Of a stretch of 43,148 nucleotides of DNA, positions 30,001-36,000 are shown in pieces. Made by a program: the position numbers. Where the stretch lies: the NCBI GenBank assembly GCA_038886995.1, contig JAWALG010000004.1, positions 1 through 43,148 of the forward strand, written 5' to 3'. Numbering within the stretch: position 1 is the first letter of the stretch; each line of letters begins with the position of its first letter. The stretch is from Candidatus Iainarchaeum sp. (GTDB taxonomy: Archaea; Iainarchaeota; Iainarchaeia; Iainarchaeales; DTGL01).

Positions 30001-33000
30001 TTTCGTATTACTTGCAAAAAAACACCCTCTTTTTTCTATTGCAGGGGGGCGGGCTCGAACCGCCGAAGGCACTAAGCCACCAGATCTTGAGTCTGGCCCG
30101 TTTGACCGCTTCGGTACCCCTGCCTCAAAAAAGTTTTTATTCTAATTCAAGTGTGTCGCCTGCTGCAACCCTGACGTTTCTTGCTTTTATGAATATTGCG
30201 CCAGTTTCACCCTCATGTAGAGCATCAACCTTCTTCTCATTTACCCATAGTTCATATATCCTCAACGGCTTTTCACCTAGCAAAATCTTATCCTTTTTTG
30301 TTATTACTCCCCTAGTTACGGTTCCCTTAATCACTGAAAGCTCATGAAGCTGAAAACTGTCTGAAACTGCAAAAAGGGCCCTGGCGTTTGTCTCTTCTTC
30401 AACTGAACCCAAATCTTCTTCCCCTGGTTTTGCAAGGCTTTCAATTTTTGCCCTTTGGTGTTCAGGGATGCACAAGCGGTCCTTTTTTTTCTGGCTTCTG
30501 TTCCACATAGCCATCATATTAAAAGCTACACTTAAAAAGAATTAAAAAATATCAAGTATCATTTTAATTCTTTTATTTGCGTCTTCTCAGCAATGTTTTT
30601 TGCCTCGGGCCAGGCGTTTTTGTGCGTCGCCTTTGTCCCAAGTAATTCTCAAACCTTTGTGCTTCAGCGCTTACGAAATGGGGCTCCTTTTCTAGTATCT
30701 TCCTTGTTTTTTCCAAGCTCAAACCTTTTCTTTTGCCTGCCAAGAATAATTTTTTTAGTTGTTCTCCTAATTCAGCAGAGCTCGCAATTGGTTTTCCATG
30801 TACAAGACTCGAGATTAGGAGTGTCTTCATTGCAGATTCTAAGCCGTACTGAGCAAGTACAAACCTCATTTCCAAGAGCTTGCTTTTATCAAGACCCATA
30901 AGCCATCTAGTCCCTTTAGGGGTTGAAACAATTGTAAGGGCTTCTTCCTTCTTGAACCCAAGATCAGTTAATAGTTTGATTCTGCTCTCAAAAATTCTTC
31001 CTAAGGCGACTTCACTCGCTTTCGAATAACTCCTCTCAGTAAGAAAATCGATAAAGGCACTCTCTTTCAGATGCCCGATGTCTCTATCAGTTAGCCCAGA
31101 GCGATTCATCAGTGCGTTGATGCTTTGTAGCCCCATCCTCATTTCATTAACAGTTGGCATCCTTCCATAAGCCATTTTAATTCTTGATTGCTTACCAGGT
31201 TCCATTAGCTTAAGAAGTACCGCGCGGCATTTCTCACCAAAGCTTGTCTTCAAAAATTGCCCTAATTCTGTGAGCTCTTTTTCATTCATTTTCCCTATTT
31301 CTTGCCAGCCGCCACTTGCCATTATTTCTAATGCCTCTTTTCTAGGAAAACCCATGGACAAAAGGAACCTCAGGCCTTTGTCAGTTTCAGTTGTTTCAGA
31401 CACGTTTAATCAATAATCTGACATTTTTCTAATATTTAAACATTTTGTTTATTTATTTGCTTATGCAAAGAGAAACCCTCCTAAGGTACAAAGATATAAT
31501 TCCTGAGTTTGAAGCCCTCATAGATTCTATTAATAGGCCTCGCGATGTCACAATAAGATGGAATCCACACAAGATTGGAAGATCCGAACTTCTGGCAATG
31601 TTAAGGGATTCTTTCAGCGAAGTCAAAGAGATTGATTGGTATGGCGAAGCTTTTAAGTTAGGCGCAAGCGATAGGCCTGGCAAAAGCTTGCTTCATGCGC
31701 TTGGCTATTACTATGTACAGGAAGAGTCAGCAATGGTAGCACCTTTGGTTCTTGAGCCGGCCAAGGGCTCTTTTATCTTTGACATGTGTGCCGCGCCAGG
31801 GGGCAAAACTACACAGATTTCTGCCTTAATAGAAAACACAGGTACAATAGTAGCCAATGACAAAGCAATACCTCGGCTTAAGAGCCTGGTCTCAAATGTT
31901 TCGCGGCTTGGCTGCCTAAATGTTGTTATAACATGGAACGATGCACGCAATTTAAAGCTCAAGGATAAATTTGATTATGTCCTTCTCGATGCACCATGCA
32001 CGGCTGAAGGCAACCTTTTCAAAGAAACAACCCTAATGCCAAAGTTTATGCGCGATAGTTTAACTAATGTGCAAAAAGCCCTGCTTCAGAAAGCTATTGA
32101 ATTTGCAAAACCTGGCGCAACAATTGTTTATTGCACATGCACTTTTGCTCCAGAAGAAAACGAAGAAGTCGTTGCAAGTGCCTTGGATAAAGGACATATT
32201 AAGATAGAATCTGTTAAGGTTAAAGTGCCACACGAAAAAGGCATTGAATGTTTCGACAAAAAAGATTACGGCATTGAGTTGAAGAAAGCAGTTCGAATTT
32301 ATCCCTACCACTTAAATTCAGGGGGGGCCTTCATTGCAAAACTCAGAAAAAGAGATTGAGGATCTTCTGCTAATCTTCGGGGTAAAACGCGAATTACTTG
32401 AAAATTACAATATTGAGAAAATAGGTAATTCATACTGGCTCACATCAAAAGGCCTTAAATCATTTGAAGGCTTTAATGTGCAGTGCAAAGGCCTTAGAAT
32501 TGCAGAAAGAACAAAGCTCGGCCTGAAGCCGACAAGCTATGGCTTGCAGTTTTTCGGACAGCAAATTAAGGAAAATGTTGTTGACTTGAAAAAAGATGAG
32601 TTGTTGTCAATAATAAAAGGCAAGCCCATTGCAAAAAGCTGCAAAGATGGTTATATTGCACTTCGCTTAGAAGGTTACGTGGTTGGTTGTGGCCTATGCA
32701 AAAAAGGCCTGGTTTATTCACAACTCCCAAAGTCGATTGCTACGGCTCTTTTAGAACTTTATGGGTGAAAGCGGCGGGACCGGGATTTGAACCCGGGAGA
32801 GCTCATCGCTCAGCAGCTTAGCAGGCTGCCGCCGTGGACCGCTGGGCCATCCCGCCAACGAGAACATATAAAAATAGCCCGGCAATCTTTAAAAATTGAA
32901 CATTTTAAATACTTTCCCAATAGAGATTTCTATAGGGTGCTAATTGTGAAGGCCAGAGATACACATTTTTTAGTTAGGAAAGTATACAGTGGAGAGCGCC

Positions 33001-36000
33001 TGTTTGAGATGGGCGAGCGCACCATCACAATAAGCCCAAATGTAAAGCTCAAGGATAAGGAAATATCTGATATTCTCAAGAAGCTCGTTTTAAAGAACGA
33101 AAGCCCAGTGCGCTTAACAATGAGCATATGCCCAAAATGCGCTGATGAGAAAAAATGGGCTGAGATGCGCATACCTGCTCTTATATTCGAAAAGGAAGGA
33201 AAAGTACTGATTAGAAAAGAATGCCCAAAGCACGGAATTTACCAGGATGCTTATTGGGAAGATGCTGAATATTACTTCAAGCAGCAAAAGTTTGCTGATC
33301 AGGGCGTTGAGCTTATAACAGTGCAGATTGATAAACCACTGGCTGATGTTGTATGCCCCAATGACTGTGGCTTATGTAGGCAGCACAAAAGCCATACTGC
33401 ACTTGCAAACCTTGTTGTGACAAATAGATGCGACCTTTCATGTTGGTACTGTTTCTTTTTTCAGAGGATGAATGAGCCAGTTTATGAGCCAGATTTAGAC
33501 ACTATAAGAGCAATGCTTAGGTCACTTCGCAATGAGAAGCCAATTGCGTGCAATGCTATCCAACTCACAGGCGGAGAGCCCACCCTTAGGGAAGACATAG
33601 TTGAAATAGTAAAGATGTGCCGAGAAGAAGGTTTTGAGCATGTCCAATTTAACACAAATGGCATAAGAATAGCGAATGATCCAGCATTTGTTGAAAAGGT
33701 TGTCAGTGCAGGCGCCAATATTTTTTATATGAGCTTTGATGGCGTTACACCAAAAACAAACCCAAAGAATTATTGGGAAGTTCCAAAAGCAATTGAGAAT
33801 GTAAGGAAAACAAAGGCGGCTGGAATTGTACTTGTGCCAACAGTTATAAATGGATTTAATACGCATGAATTAGGTGACATAATAAGGTTTGCTGCCTCAC
33901 AGATTGATGTTGTGCGCGGTGTAAACATGCAGCCAGTTTCTCTTGTTGGGATGATGCCTAAAAACGAGCGTGAGAAGCAACGCATAACAATACCAAAAAC
34001 AATTAGGTTGATTGAAGAGCAGACCGACGGGCAAATAGGGCTAGATGATTTCTATTGTGTGCCCTGCGTAGGGCCAGTAACAAACCTTATAGAATCCCTT
34101 ACTGGCAGGCCTCAATATCGTTTGTCCTCCCATTTTGCTTGTGGTGCTGGCACATATGTTTTTATTGAAGGCAAGCGCTTTATCCCAATAACCAGATTTG
34201 TTGATGTCGAGGGGCTGTTCGAGTACTTGCAATCATTGGCTGGAGAGCTGAGGGGCAAAAAGCTCGGGCGCTTAGGTAAAGTTTTGACAACCAGCAAACT
34301 TCTTTATAAGGTAAATTCTTTTATAGACCCAACAAAGAAGCCAAAGAATCTAAAGCTAGGCGAAATGCTTGCAAAGGCCCTCATCAGTGGAAACTATGAC
34401 GGCTTAAAGGAATTCCACTATAACTCTCTTTTTATAGGTATGATGCATTTTATGGATCCTTACGATTATGATGTAGATCGTGTCGAAAGATGCTGCATAC
34501 ACTACGCTATGCCTGATAACAGAATAGTGCCATTCTGTGCGTTCAATGTGATACCAGAACTTTACAGGGACGCAACACAGAAGAAATATTCAATTCAGGC
34601 CAAAGAATGGGAAAGACTTAAAGGCAAAAAGCTTTGCAATGACAAGTATAGGCGAAATATCCCCAAAGAAGAGCAGCAAAAAATAGAAGCTTATTATAAG
34701 GAAAACATAGGGAAATTTAAGTAAAGCAGTGGTTTTTTTGGAATTCCTTTTTCTTTTTGGCAGGAACCCAAAGCTTTCTTACATCGAGCTTTTAAGTTAT
34801 CTCAGGGCAAGAGAAATTAACTTCAAAGTTTCGTGTTTCTATGAAAAAGCAACAATACTCGACTTACCGCAACAGGTTAACCTAGATGAGATTTTGGCTG
34901 GCTTAGGTGGCACAGTTAAAGTTGCAAAAGTTCTATTTTGGTGCGATGAGAATTCTATTGGTAAGAATCTTGAGGATGCCTGTCTTTATGAGGGAAATTC
35001 AAACAAAATAGTTTATAGTGTAGAAACAATAGGAGCATCGCCTTCTGTAAGGTCCTATTTCCAAGAAAACTTCAAAAAACAGGGAATAAAGGCTTTGCAC
35101 AAAGACATTGCTCCACATACGCTTGCTAAGAGCAGCAAAGAGCTGCTGAGCTTTGTGGTGCTTAAAGCAGGGCCTTTGTTTTATGTTGCTAGGGCTATAA
35201 AATCCTTTGATCCACATAGTTTTAAGGAGAGGGATGTTTCAAGGCCATACATTGAACCAGAGGTGATGAGCTCCATACGGCTATCAAGGATACTTGTTAA
35301 TCTTGCAGGAGTTAGGTCGAAAGCAAAAATGCTTGACCCTTTTTGTGGCATAGGCACTGTTCTTCAAGAGGCGCTGCTTCTTGGCTTTGAGGTCTATGGC
35401 ATAGACCTTAGCAGAGATCGCATACAGAAGGCCTCAGAAAACCTTAAATGGGTTGAAAGAACTTATGGGGTTTCCGGATCGTGGACTGTTAGGCAGGGCG
35501 ATGCAAAAAAGCTTTCCCAGTACTTTCCAGAGCATTATTTTGATTTTATTGCTACTGAGCCAGAACTTGGTCCTTTAATCAAAAAAGCACCATCTGATAA
35601 AGAAGCCGAGCAAACAATCAAAGACCTCCAAAAACTCTATGAAAAGTTTTTCGTTGAAGCTTCTAAGGTTCTTAAGCCAAGAGGCCGGATATCCGTTGTT
35701 ATTCCACGCATAAGGGCCAAAAGTACGAAAACATATCGCATTGATATTGATTCTATTTTGCAAAGGTCTGGTTTTAAGATTTATAATCCTACGTCTGGCT
35801 GTGGTTTTGAGGCAAAAGTTCCAGTTTTTTATAAGGAGCAATGGCACAAAATAGAGCGTCTTATTTACATCTTAGAAAAAATGTAATGGCAACATTTTAA
35901 AATAATTCTGAAAATTATAATTAATGTAAAACAAGCCCAAGTAGTCTAATGGTTAGGATGCGGCCCTGTCGCACCAATTTCTTTCCTTTATGAAGGGAAG

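What a model noticed while it worked through the whole genome (the two positions that open the first line are those of the whole stretch)
32787..34724. Full ether/tetraether lipid pathway incl. native Tes but no glycerol-phosphate backbone enzyme
The genome encodes the archaeal mevalonate pathway in one operon (C2:34484-44770), GGPP, GGGP and DGGGP synthases, CarS, reductases and a tetraether synthase Tes embedded among its own tRNA genes, yet neither G1P dehydrogenase nor GpsA nor glycerol kinase. The gap is family-wide, so these cells can build GDGT lipids only from imported glycerol phosphate or by an unknown enzyme; Tes here is native, not host contamination.
Evidence so far: Tes (NCBIfam row) between tRNA-Ser and trm11/tRNA-Asp on C4; orthologs at 49-75% identity in 19 of 61 order genomes of 13 families. 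GGGP synthase in 13 of 13 family genomes. G1PDH-type PF13685 in 0 of 10 family genomes; strong hits only in a sister order. GpsA 0 of 13, FGGY kinase 0 of 13. PMC8941075 (passages, call 109) suggests DPANN Tes may belong to hosts.
(Added by a program. Inside this text positions count along the whole contig: contig position 1 is position 1 of the stretch shown here. "Call 12" and the like, gene names such as g00115 and contig names such as C1 are that model's own, and its searches are not shown. The text may have been shortened before it was handed on; [...] marks where a part breaks off. The agent that wrote the report below was given it as the finding of a first reader that could run no searches.)

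Follow-up and report, generated by a model that had tools for sequence, protein, structure and literature searches.

The report
Candidate replacement for archaeal backbone enzyme
These tiny archaea have their own tetraether synthase and lack the enzyme thought to define archaeal membrane lipids, but in three related phyla they carry an uncharacterised reductase beside an altered ether-forming enzyme, which probably builds the lipid backbone by an undescribed route.

Summary
Observation confirmed and extended. The gene is a native Tes of an Iainarchaeota genome (NF045702 703 bits; start probably 33009). G1PDH was not found in any of 101 order genomes, GpsA in 0, FGGY kinases in 2, while GGGP synthase is in 83. 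The G1PDH loss is already published (PMC12892359). New: an extended SDR (C22:7936-8838, outside the window) sits beside GGGP synthase and shares its distribution (81 both, 16 neither, 4 discordant). In a related 31-genome phylum, 14 genomes have G1PDH, 13 have the SDR head-to-head with GGGP synthase, none both. In sampled Micrarchaeota the SDR mostly lies directly upstream of it. SDR-linked GGGP synthases have lost the Tyr-x-Glu pair proposed to read the glycerol hydroxyls; G1PDH-linked ones keep it. Reading: SDR plus altered GGGP synthase replace G1PDH (about 0.75); most likely DHAP is prenylated first and the ketone then reduced (0.45), or the SDR reduces free DHAP (0.30). Import is unlikely (0.10). 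Backbone handedness is open; bacterial G3P handedness is possible (0.25). No biochemistry exists; all function is inferred from genomes.

The parts
33009..34724 (+). Tetraether synthase Tes (GDGT-MAS), 571 aa from the likely start; rubredoxin CPKC/CPKH, N-terminal cluster CPNDCGLCRQH, radical-SAM CDLSCWYC, C-terminal HFACG/MMHF/CCIHY/PFC
   Evidence: NF045702 702.9 bits; 7TOL E 7e-134; motifs; ligand roles from passages of PMC9433317
34729..35886 (+). Trm11-like (TIGR01177-type) methyltransferase, directly downstream of Tes
   Evidence: 106.7 bits, below cut-off 316.6; same neighbour in same-genus loci
35935..36091 (+). tRNA-Asp(GTC) with 85-nt intron
   Evidence: aragorn with introns
31445..32768 (+). 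NOL1/NOP2-family RNA methyltransferase (31445-32359) and a 144-aa ORF without family (32334-32768), upstream of Tes in the genus
30040..30123 (-). tRNA-Leu(CAA), part of the housekeeping context of Tes
6636..7481 (+). DGGGP synthase-like UbiA prenyltransferase (second ether bond). The GGGP synthase (C22:7134-7934 +) and its SDR partner (C22:7936-8838 -) lie on another contig and cannot be given in window coordinates
   Evidence: PRK12882 247.8 bits, cut-off 296; UbiA PF01040; C22 genes

Best explanation
These cells make their own ether-lipid backbone without G1PDH. A two-gene module does it: a GGGP synthase whose glycerol-reading Tyr-x-Glu pair is altered, and an NAD(P)H-dependent extended SDR (module about 0.75). 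Most likely order (0.45): DHAP from TPI and FBP aldolase/phosphatase is first geranylgeranylated on its free hydroxyl by the altered synthase; the SDR then reduces the C2 ketone of geranylgeranyl-DHAP to geranylgeranylglyceryl phosphate; DGGGPS, CarS, GGR and Tes continue as usual to archaeol and GDGT. Shown: gene identities, absences, linkage, mutual exclusion, motif change. Inferred: that the SDR acts on the backbone, its substrate, the order of steps, the handedness of the product, and that GDGT is made.
For: Same 101 order genomes: GGGPS in 83, SDR ortholog at 278 bits or more in 83; 81 both, 16 neither, 2+2 discordant. In 74 of the 81 they share a contig, all within 3.7 kb, 73 convergent. 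Related phylum, 31 genomes: G1PDH 14, SDR 13, both 0, neither 4; SDR head-to-head with GGGPS in 13 of 13 (46-364 bases between matches); all 13 typed GGGPS of G1PDH genomes keep Y-x-E, all 13 of SDR genomes have lost Tyr and have Asp. Sampled Micrarchaeota: G1PDH 1 of 161; GGGPS beside the SDR in 23 of the 30 best SDR loci, 21 co-directional of the 22 read; 7 of 7 genomes retested after missing the first threshold have the SDR, 6 with GGGPS beside it. The one G1PDH-bearing genome (G249) has YLEAGSG and no SDR beside GGGPS; its SDR matches fall outside the ortholog groups, while order-mates carry the SDR-GGGPS pair. 31 of 31 typed native Iainarchaeales GGGPS have Ile/Leu for the Tyr. The Tyr and Glu are described as strictly conserved and proposed to set stereospecificity (PMC9385802). 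Control: the other neighbour (MBL hydrolase) persists in 3 of 5 genomes that lack the pair and with G1PDH in the 31-genome phylum; G002 lacks CarS and GGPP synthase too. SDR keeps N74, Y121, K125 in 60 of 60 and S97 in 57. For a lipid substrate: nearest NCBIfam models of the genome's SDR are HpnA, OleD-type oxoalkanoate reductases; a 28-41-residue segment with a predicted helix against 17 in the genome's sugar-epimerase paralog; eukaryotes use the same order, alkyl-DHAP then reduction (PMC9092451). DHAP sources TPI and FBP aldolase/phosphatase are present.
Against: No activity data. Kin are not independent: the 14-versus-13 split may be a single event, and G249 is one genome of unknown completeness whose G1PDH-like protein scores 216.6 against a cut-off of 413. 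Tyr is kept with Asp in G211, which has the SDR, and in 3 of 79 typed metagenome loci; 17 of 120 homologs have Phe. In GGGPS-anchored metagenome loci with 1.5 kb or more on both sides, the SDR is within 3 kb in 23 of 38 (one only an edge fragment) and absent from 15. G024 (91% complete) and G105 have the altered GGGPS and no SDR match. G112 and G115 have canonical GGGPS and no G1PDH found. The SDRs beside GGGPS are not one clean clade in the quick tree: 22 unassigned representatives and one G115 protein sit between the two groups. All family scores are far below cut-offs, dTDP-glucose dehydratase matches all 26 rows as well, and the best structural matches are sugar-nucleotide enzymes at 18-24% identity. 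The helix control is weak (most control rows were cut by the profile). Loss of Tyr fits a switch to G3P as well as to DHAP.
Confidence: 0.45

Rival explanations
1. Same module, other order: the SDR is a non-homologous DHAP reductase that makes free glycerol phosphate (G1P, or G3P, to which the altered GGGP synthase has adapted).
For: All linkage and exclusion evidence. Invariant Arg266 in 60 of 60 rows could bind a phosphate. Canonical GGGPS can use G3P weakly and DGGGPS and CarS do not select strongly for handedness (PMC9385802; PMC4244643).
Against: If the product were G1P there would be no reason for the synthase's glycerol site to change with the SDR. The SDR's nearest named models include lipid-ketone reductases. 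No known DHAP reductase is an extended SDR (recalled).
Confidence: 0.3
2. The SDR does something else (sugar-nucleotide or head-group chemistry, or G3P/G1P epimerisation) and travels with the altered GGGPS by ancestry; the backbone comes from another unrecognised enzyme.
For: Foldseek top hits are epimerases and dehydratases; convergent orientation in Iainarchaeales is not an operon; 15 of 38 well-flanked metagenome loci lack it nearby; the genome holds other unassigned redox and kinase genes (Zn-ADH, ROK); an unknown G1P route is reported for E. coli (PMC7852524).
Against: Linkage survives in three gene arrangements in three phyla, the SDR is lost with GGGPS, and it is absent from all 14 G1PDH genomes of the 31.
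Confidence: 0.12
3. One reading: glycerol phosphate is taken from a host or the medium and only the later steps are run.
For: G1PDH, GpsA and GlpK not found; one MFS transporter of unknown substrate; host lipid dependence was concluded for Micrarchaeum harzensis, which lacks G1PDH and HMGR (PMC8975820).
Against: No GDPD in 5 of 5 genomes; no ABC importer permease of the UgpA/E type among 52 membrane proteins outside the window scanned (picked by a hydropathy rule, so not exhaustive); does not explain the SDR's distribution or the motif change.
Confidence: 0.1
4. G1PDH is merely missing from incomplete bins or too diverged to detect.
For: G000 is 88.6% complete in 38 contigs; 24 of 44 weak PF13685 matches were not classified.
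Against: Best score 56.6 bits in 101 genomes, 45 of them at least 90% complete, one 99% in one contig; the same model finds DPANN G1PDHs at 88-121 bits; published frequency 0 for Iainarchaeota.
Confidence: 0.03

Closest known systems
Tes / GDGT-MAS (MJ0619, PDB 7TOL; NCBIfam NF045702)
   Same: Full-length match over cut-off; all four metal-site motifs and the Met439 and Tyr459 equivalents present.
   Different: In a DPANN genome, where PMC8941075 suggested host origin; about 30 extra N-terminal residues; no activity or lipid data.
Canonical archaeal backbone route: G1PDH (EgsA/AraM) plus group II GGGP synthase (4MM1, 5NDY, 6JO3)
   Same: GGGPS passes TIGR01769 (203.7, cut-off 161.6); model TM-score 0.80-0.85 to group II structures; first Tyr (Y137), Mg-site Asp (D31) and phosphate-loop glycines kept.
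   Different: G1PDH absent; YLEAGSG becomes ILE[SA]GGG in Iainarchaeales and mostly [ILVF][TL]DxGS in the two other phyla; an extended SDR takes the neighbouring place.
Eukaryotic ether-lipid route (alkyl-DHAP, then DHRS7B alkylglycerone-phosphate reductase)
   Same: Proposed logic: ether bond on DHAP first, ketone reduced second, by an SDR-fold enzyme (PMC9092451 passage; that DHRS7B is an SDR is recalled).
   Different: Unrelated ether-forming enzyme (TIM-barrel prenyltransferase, not AGPS), isoprenoid chain, extended rather than classical SDR; analogy only.
3beta-HSD-like extended SDRs: OleD, HpnA, SdmB
   Same: Nearest NCBIfam models for the genome's SDR; TGxxGxxG, N-S-Y-K tetrad, C-terminal helix.
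   Different: Scores 60-96 bits against cut-offs 368-600; not a member of any.
Other lineages with GGGPS but no G1PDH: Marine Group II, Lokiarchaeota, Cloacimonetes, Micrarchaeum harzensis
   Same: Same gap in the pathway (PMC7852524; PMC8975820).
   Different: MGII and Loki are said to be able to make G3P; this lineage has no GpsA, GlpK or GlpA/D found. Whether those lineages carry the SDR or the altered motif was not tested.

Membership tests
Tes / GDGT-MAS | Whole-protein score over NF045702 cut-off | tested here: met
   702.9 against 450
Tes / GDGT-MAS | Rubredoxin CxxC...CxxH, N-terminal cluster, radical-SAM CxxxCxxC, C-terminal cluster with labile Met and conserved Tyr | tested here: met
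   Alignment to 7TOL; motifs at 41, 72, 116, 141, 375, 478, 495, 508; paper passages
Tes / GDGT-MAS | Forms GDGT or macrocyclic archaeol | not testable with these tools
   Halobacteria with Tes homologs were reported without GDGT (PMC8941075)
Group II GGGP synthase (G1P-specific) | Family score and modified TIM barrel | tested here: met
   TIGR01769 203.7; pLDDT 89, TM 0.80-0.85
Group II GGGP synthase (G1P-specific) | Strictly conserved Tyr/Tyr/Glu triad of the G1P site | tested here: not met
   Y137 and E181 kept, second Tyr is I179; Ile/Leu in 31 of 31 typed order sequences. The Tyr is Y172 by my count of the 4MM1 chain; the review numbers it Y165 in A. fulgidus and Y178 in M. thermautotrophicus
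Group II GGGP synthase (G1P-specific) | Selectivity for G1P over G3P and DHAP | not testable with these tools
   needs enzyme assay
G1PDH (EgsA/AraM) | Fe-ADH/DHQS fold, PF13685 and NF002022 match | tested here: not met
   No match in G000; the SDR is a Rossmann extended SDR, so at most an analog
Extended SDR superfamily | TGxxGxxG, Asn-Ser-Tyr-Lys tetrad, fold | tested here: met
   PF01370 111.6 bits; residues; model pLDDT 93.6, TM 0.72-0.79
OleD / HpnA / SdmB equivalogs | Score over curated cut-off | tested here: not met
   96, 92, 84, 60 bits against 368, 580, 580, 600
Non-orthologous replacement of G1PDH | Complementary distribution and linkage to the pathway gene | tested here: met
   14/13/0/4 in 31 genomes; linkage; few independent events
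Non-orthologous replacement of G1PDH | Reduces DHAP or prenyl-DHAP | not testable with these tools
   needs enzyme assay

The most novel reading that the evidence does not exclude
Most sampled Iainarchaeota and Micrarchaeota, and part of a third DPANN phylum, build isoprenoid ether lipids (tetraethers where Tes is present) on the bacterial sn-glycerol-3-phosphate backbone, through an SDR plus a GGGP synthase that has lost its G1P stereo-filter: archaea on the other side of the lipid divide.
Probability: 0.25. Interest if true: 0.95.

Novelty: new variant of a known kind. Interest (0 to 1): 0.82.

Why it matters
G1PDH is treated as the hallmark of archaeal membranes, and its loss has been used to argue that the Micrarchaeota ancestor could not make a membrane (PMC12892359). 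If the SDR-GGGPS pair fills the gap, lipid autonomy of most sampled Iainarchaeota and Micrarchaeota has been under-called, an unnamed enzyme family gets a function, and the question of how lineages without G1PDH make their backbone becomes a two-protein assay. The handedness of the product bears on the lipid divide. Native Tes adds a DPANN lineage to the possible GDGT producers.

Tried and rejected
Weak PF13685 matches as hidden G1PDH: 20 of 44 classified, all AroB or Fe-ADH. GpsA, FGGY, GlpA/D, GDPD as sources; one of the two FGGY matches was classified, as xylulokinase. MBL hydrolase, RPA and RNA cyclase beside GGGPS as pathway members: less linked (17, 16, 9 of 30 loci against 23 for the SDR), and the MBL gene persists without the pair. 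Tes neighbours as a lipid operon: no neighbour conserved across the order beyond small unassigned genes. Host origin of Tes: rejected for the family. Complex prediction of GGGPS, SDR and NADP: no answer, score 0.00; not used either way. Search for more G1PDH-bearing Micrarchaeota for independent contrasts: 1 of 29 in the order of G249. Naming the proteins that sit between the SDR groups: 10 looked up, only generic names, one from Methanoperedens. ESM Atlas: generic names only. M. harzensis supplements: GGGPS presence row only, no gene order, one file unreadable. Literature: searches listed nothing on such an SDR in titles or abstract starts; searches returned no paper; subscription journals are not covered. 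Earlier scan findings: none by words or sequence. The GGGPS tree is the quick IQ-TREE run, the careful one did not finish; SDR and Tes trees are FastTree. About 700 proteins of the genome were not scanned against family libraries.

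
Full report
Organism and gene. The window is contig C4 of an 865,833-base, 38-contig genome, 88.6% complete. The closest Tes relatives among named records are titled Ca. Iainarchaeum archaeon, 88, 78, 63 and 60% identical, so this is an Iainarchaeota genome (the order name Iainarchaeales is my inference). The ORF scores 702.9 bits on NF045702 (cut-off 450) and aligns over 108-612 with 7TOL. Its TTG start lies inside tRNA-Ser on the other strand; ATG 33009 is the likely start. The rubredoxin, N-terminal cluster, radical-SAM and C-terminal motifs described in PMC9433317 (passages) are all present, and six of eight motif patterns hold in 25 of 25 order sequences; PFC holds in 24 and the strict CCIHY pattern in 4, the second Cys being variable, while the Tyr459 equivalent is kept in 16 of 16 non-duplicate rows.

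Is Tes native? It passes the cut-off in 29 of 101 order genomes from 12 families and in 8 of 8 family genomes, one of them split. In a FastTree of 79 rows (88 found, 9 identical rows dropped) the family's Tes form a clade at 100% local support; GC3 is 0.40 against 0.376 +/- 0.031; flanking genes are shared within the genus. Host contamination, raised for DPANN in PMC8941075 (passages), does not fit this family. Across the order the sequences fall in several groups (8 label changes), so repeated gain or poor resolution is open.

The pathway and the gap. The mevalonate operon, GGPP synthase, GGGPS, a DGGGPS-like protein, CarS, one GGR-family gene and one CDP-alcohol transferase are present. G1PDH is not: no PF13685 candidate in the genome, nothing with a profile of six DPANN G1PDHs in six frames. 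Over 101 order genomes the best score is 56.6 bits; 20 of 44 over-cut-off matches were classified, 16 AroB and 4 Fe-ADH. GpsA 0 of 101, FGGY 2 of 101, GlpA/D-like full-length matches 0 of 5, GDPD 0 of 5. GGGPS is in 83 of 101 and in 43 of 45 high-quality genomes. The loss is published: PMC12892359 (passages) places it before Iainarchaeota, B1Sed10-29 and Micrarchaeota and concludes that the Micrarchaeota ancestor could not make an archaeal membrane; its supplement (rows seen, file cut when stored) gives araM frequencies of 0 for Iainarchaeota, 0.75 for B1Sed10-29 and 0-0.067 for Micrarchaeota orders.

The candidate. In 30 GGGPS loci (1.5 kb each side) the commonest neighbour is a 300-aa extended SDR, 23 of 30; then an MBL hydrolase 17, RPA 16, RNA cyclase 9. 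In this genome it is C22:7936-8838, tail to tail with GGGPS at C22:7134-7934. A 17-row profile finds the ortholog (278-471 bits; next paralog 190) in 83 of the same 101 genomes: 81 have both genes, 16 neither (all 7 of one family, 6 of 7 of another, 3 single genomes), 2 GGGPS only, 2 SDR only; 74 of the 81 have them on one contig, all within 3.7 kb. One GGGPS-only case (G031) is a divergent copy, one SDR-only case lies on a 2-kb contig piece; G024 and G038 are unexplained. The MBL neighbour persists in 3 of 5 tested genomes without the pair, and G002 also lacks CarS and GGPP synthase: the SDR goes when the lipid pathway goes.

Mutual exclusion. In the phylum of G101, 31 genomes (probably B1Sed10-29; inferred from size and published frequency), G1PDH is in 14 (88-121 bits; six checked at 392-412 bits on NF002022, cut-off 413) and the SDR in 13 (248-298 bits); none has both, four have neither. 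G1PDH lies within 1.6 kb of GGGPS in 13 of 14, the SDR head to head with it in 13 of 13. In the phylum of G102 (161 sampled; Micrarchaeota by record title), G1PDH is in 1 and the SDR in 78 at the first threshold, an undercount: 7 of 7 retested negatives have it. GGGPS lies beside it in 23 of the 30 best loci, mostly just downstream on the same strand. Three phyla, three arrangements. These are few independent events; the counts are descriptive.

The synthase changes with its partner. A review (PMC9385802, passages and first part of section 7) calls two Tyr and one Glu strictly conserved and proposed to set stereospecificity and catalysis. Against 4MM1, this enzyme keeps Y137 and E181 but has I179 for the second Tyr. 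All 31 typed native order sequences (of 83 genomes) have Ile or Leu. In the 31-genome phylum all 13 typed G1PDH genomes keep Y-x-E and all 13 SDR genomes have an aliphatic residue and Asp. In a quick IQ-TREE of 92 rows the altered enzymes of the three phyla form one branch at 98% (72 rows), with two Tyr rows inside: G249, the only G1PDH-bearing genome of its order (1 of 29), with YLEAGSG, no SDR beside it and only sugar-cluster SDRs elsewhere; and G211, with Tyr, Asp and the SDR, an exception. Of the 120 best homologs in the protein collection 1 has Tyr, 17 Phe, all 120 Asp; taxon names, where shown, are Micrarchaeota or Diapherotrites, or an unplaced archaeon. In 80 metagenome loci anchored on GGGPS, 2 of 79 typed have Y-x-E, 3 Tyr with Asp; G1PDH is near none; the SDR is within 3 kb in 23 of 38 loci with 1.5 kb on both sides and missing from 15.

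The SDR. It has TGxxGxxG, the catalytic tetrad and an invariant Arg266, a confident model (pLDDT 93.6) and an extended-SDR fold with no close structure (TM 0.72-0.79, 18-24% identity; no solved sequence at E 1e-20). Nearest named models are HpnA and OleD-type reductases, far below cut-offs; sugar dehydratase models match too. In a FastTree of 99 rows the GGGPS-linked SDRs form two groups with 22 unassigned representatives and one G115 protein between them, so one origin is likely but not shown.

Mechanism. DHAP is available from TPI (3 kb from GGGPS) and FBP aldolase/phosphatase. If the SDR simply made G1P, the synthase's glycerol site need not change; since it does, the acceptor is probably not G1P. 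Either it is DHAP, and the SDR reduces the lipid-borne ketone afterwards, as in eukaryotic ether lipids (PMC9092451 passage), or it is G3P made by the SDR. I put the module at about 0.75, split 0.45 prenylate-then-reduce and 0.30 free DHAP reductase; SDR unrelated 0.12, import 0.10, bin artefact 0.03. Later enzymes are reported to tolerate either handedness (PMC4244643 passages; PMC9385802), so a G3P backbone is possible (0.25). For import, 52 membrane proteins outside the window gave one MFS and no Ugp-type permease.

Known versus new. Known: Tes homologs in DPANN bins, loss of G1PDH in this clade, and GGGPS without G1PDH in other lineages (PMC7852524 passages; PMC8975820 passages and supplement rows; PMC6431249 and PMC13473441 passages, added nothing specific; PMC7414124 passages). 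Not found in print in eight searches of the held library (listings only, subscription journals and preprint supplements not covered): the SDR, its exclusion with G1PDH, and the altered GGGPS site. Verdict: a new variant of the archaeal ether-lipid pathway, well supported as a genomic module, untested as chemistry. Interest 0.82.

Noticed in passing
G000 C21:16546-18995 (L197): CrtI-family phytoene desaturase (TIGR02734 448.6 bits) beside a UbiA-type prenyltransferase: possible carotenoid genes in a small DPANN genome.
   Followed up: no
G000 C9:14041-24168 (L175, L176): Cluster of radical-SAM proteins, best matches HxsC/HxsC4 below cut-offs; family genomes hold 5-14 such matches. Possibly a peptide-modification locus.
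   Followed up: partly
L125:1468-2238 (G018): A second GGGPS with the canonical YLEAGSG motif in tandem behind the altered one; no G1PDH found in that genome.
   Followed up: partly
L001-L104: Tes of the order is not one clade; one family groups near Nitrososphaerota sequences and one row near Bathyarchaeia/Thorarchaeota.
   Followed up: partly
L310:1438-2343 (G031): Very divergent GGGPS-family protein in a family that otherwise lacks GGGPS.
   Followed up: no
L250-L275 (31-genome phylum): A 390-425-aa protein without NCBIfam match lies downstream of GGGPS in most loci of both the G1PDH and the SDR type.
   Followed up: no
L252 (G131) and G089:C21:1949-3277: GGGPS of G131 and Tes of G089 are each split by a stop; sequencing error or pseudogene not resolved.
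   Followed up: no
window 39289-40680 (-), 30573-31403 (-), 37450-37803 (+), 9923-10690 (-): ORFs without a convincing family; 39289-40680 looks like HEAT-type repeats with a nucleotidyltransferase-like end (read from the sequence; one search gives only a weak lyase-repeat match).
   Followed up: no
window 36100-37230 (-): Radical-SAM protein of the DNA modification/repair type (TIGR03916 279.8, below cut-off 343.5) near Tes.
   Followed up: no
L116 (G089:C17): Phosphonopyruvate decarboxylase beside an Fe-ADH: phosphonate biosynthesis genes in a family member.
   Followed up: no
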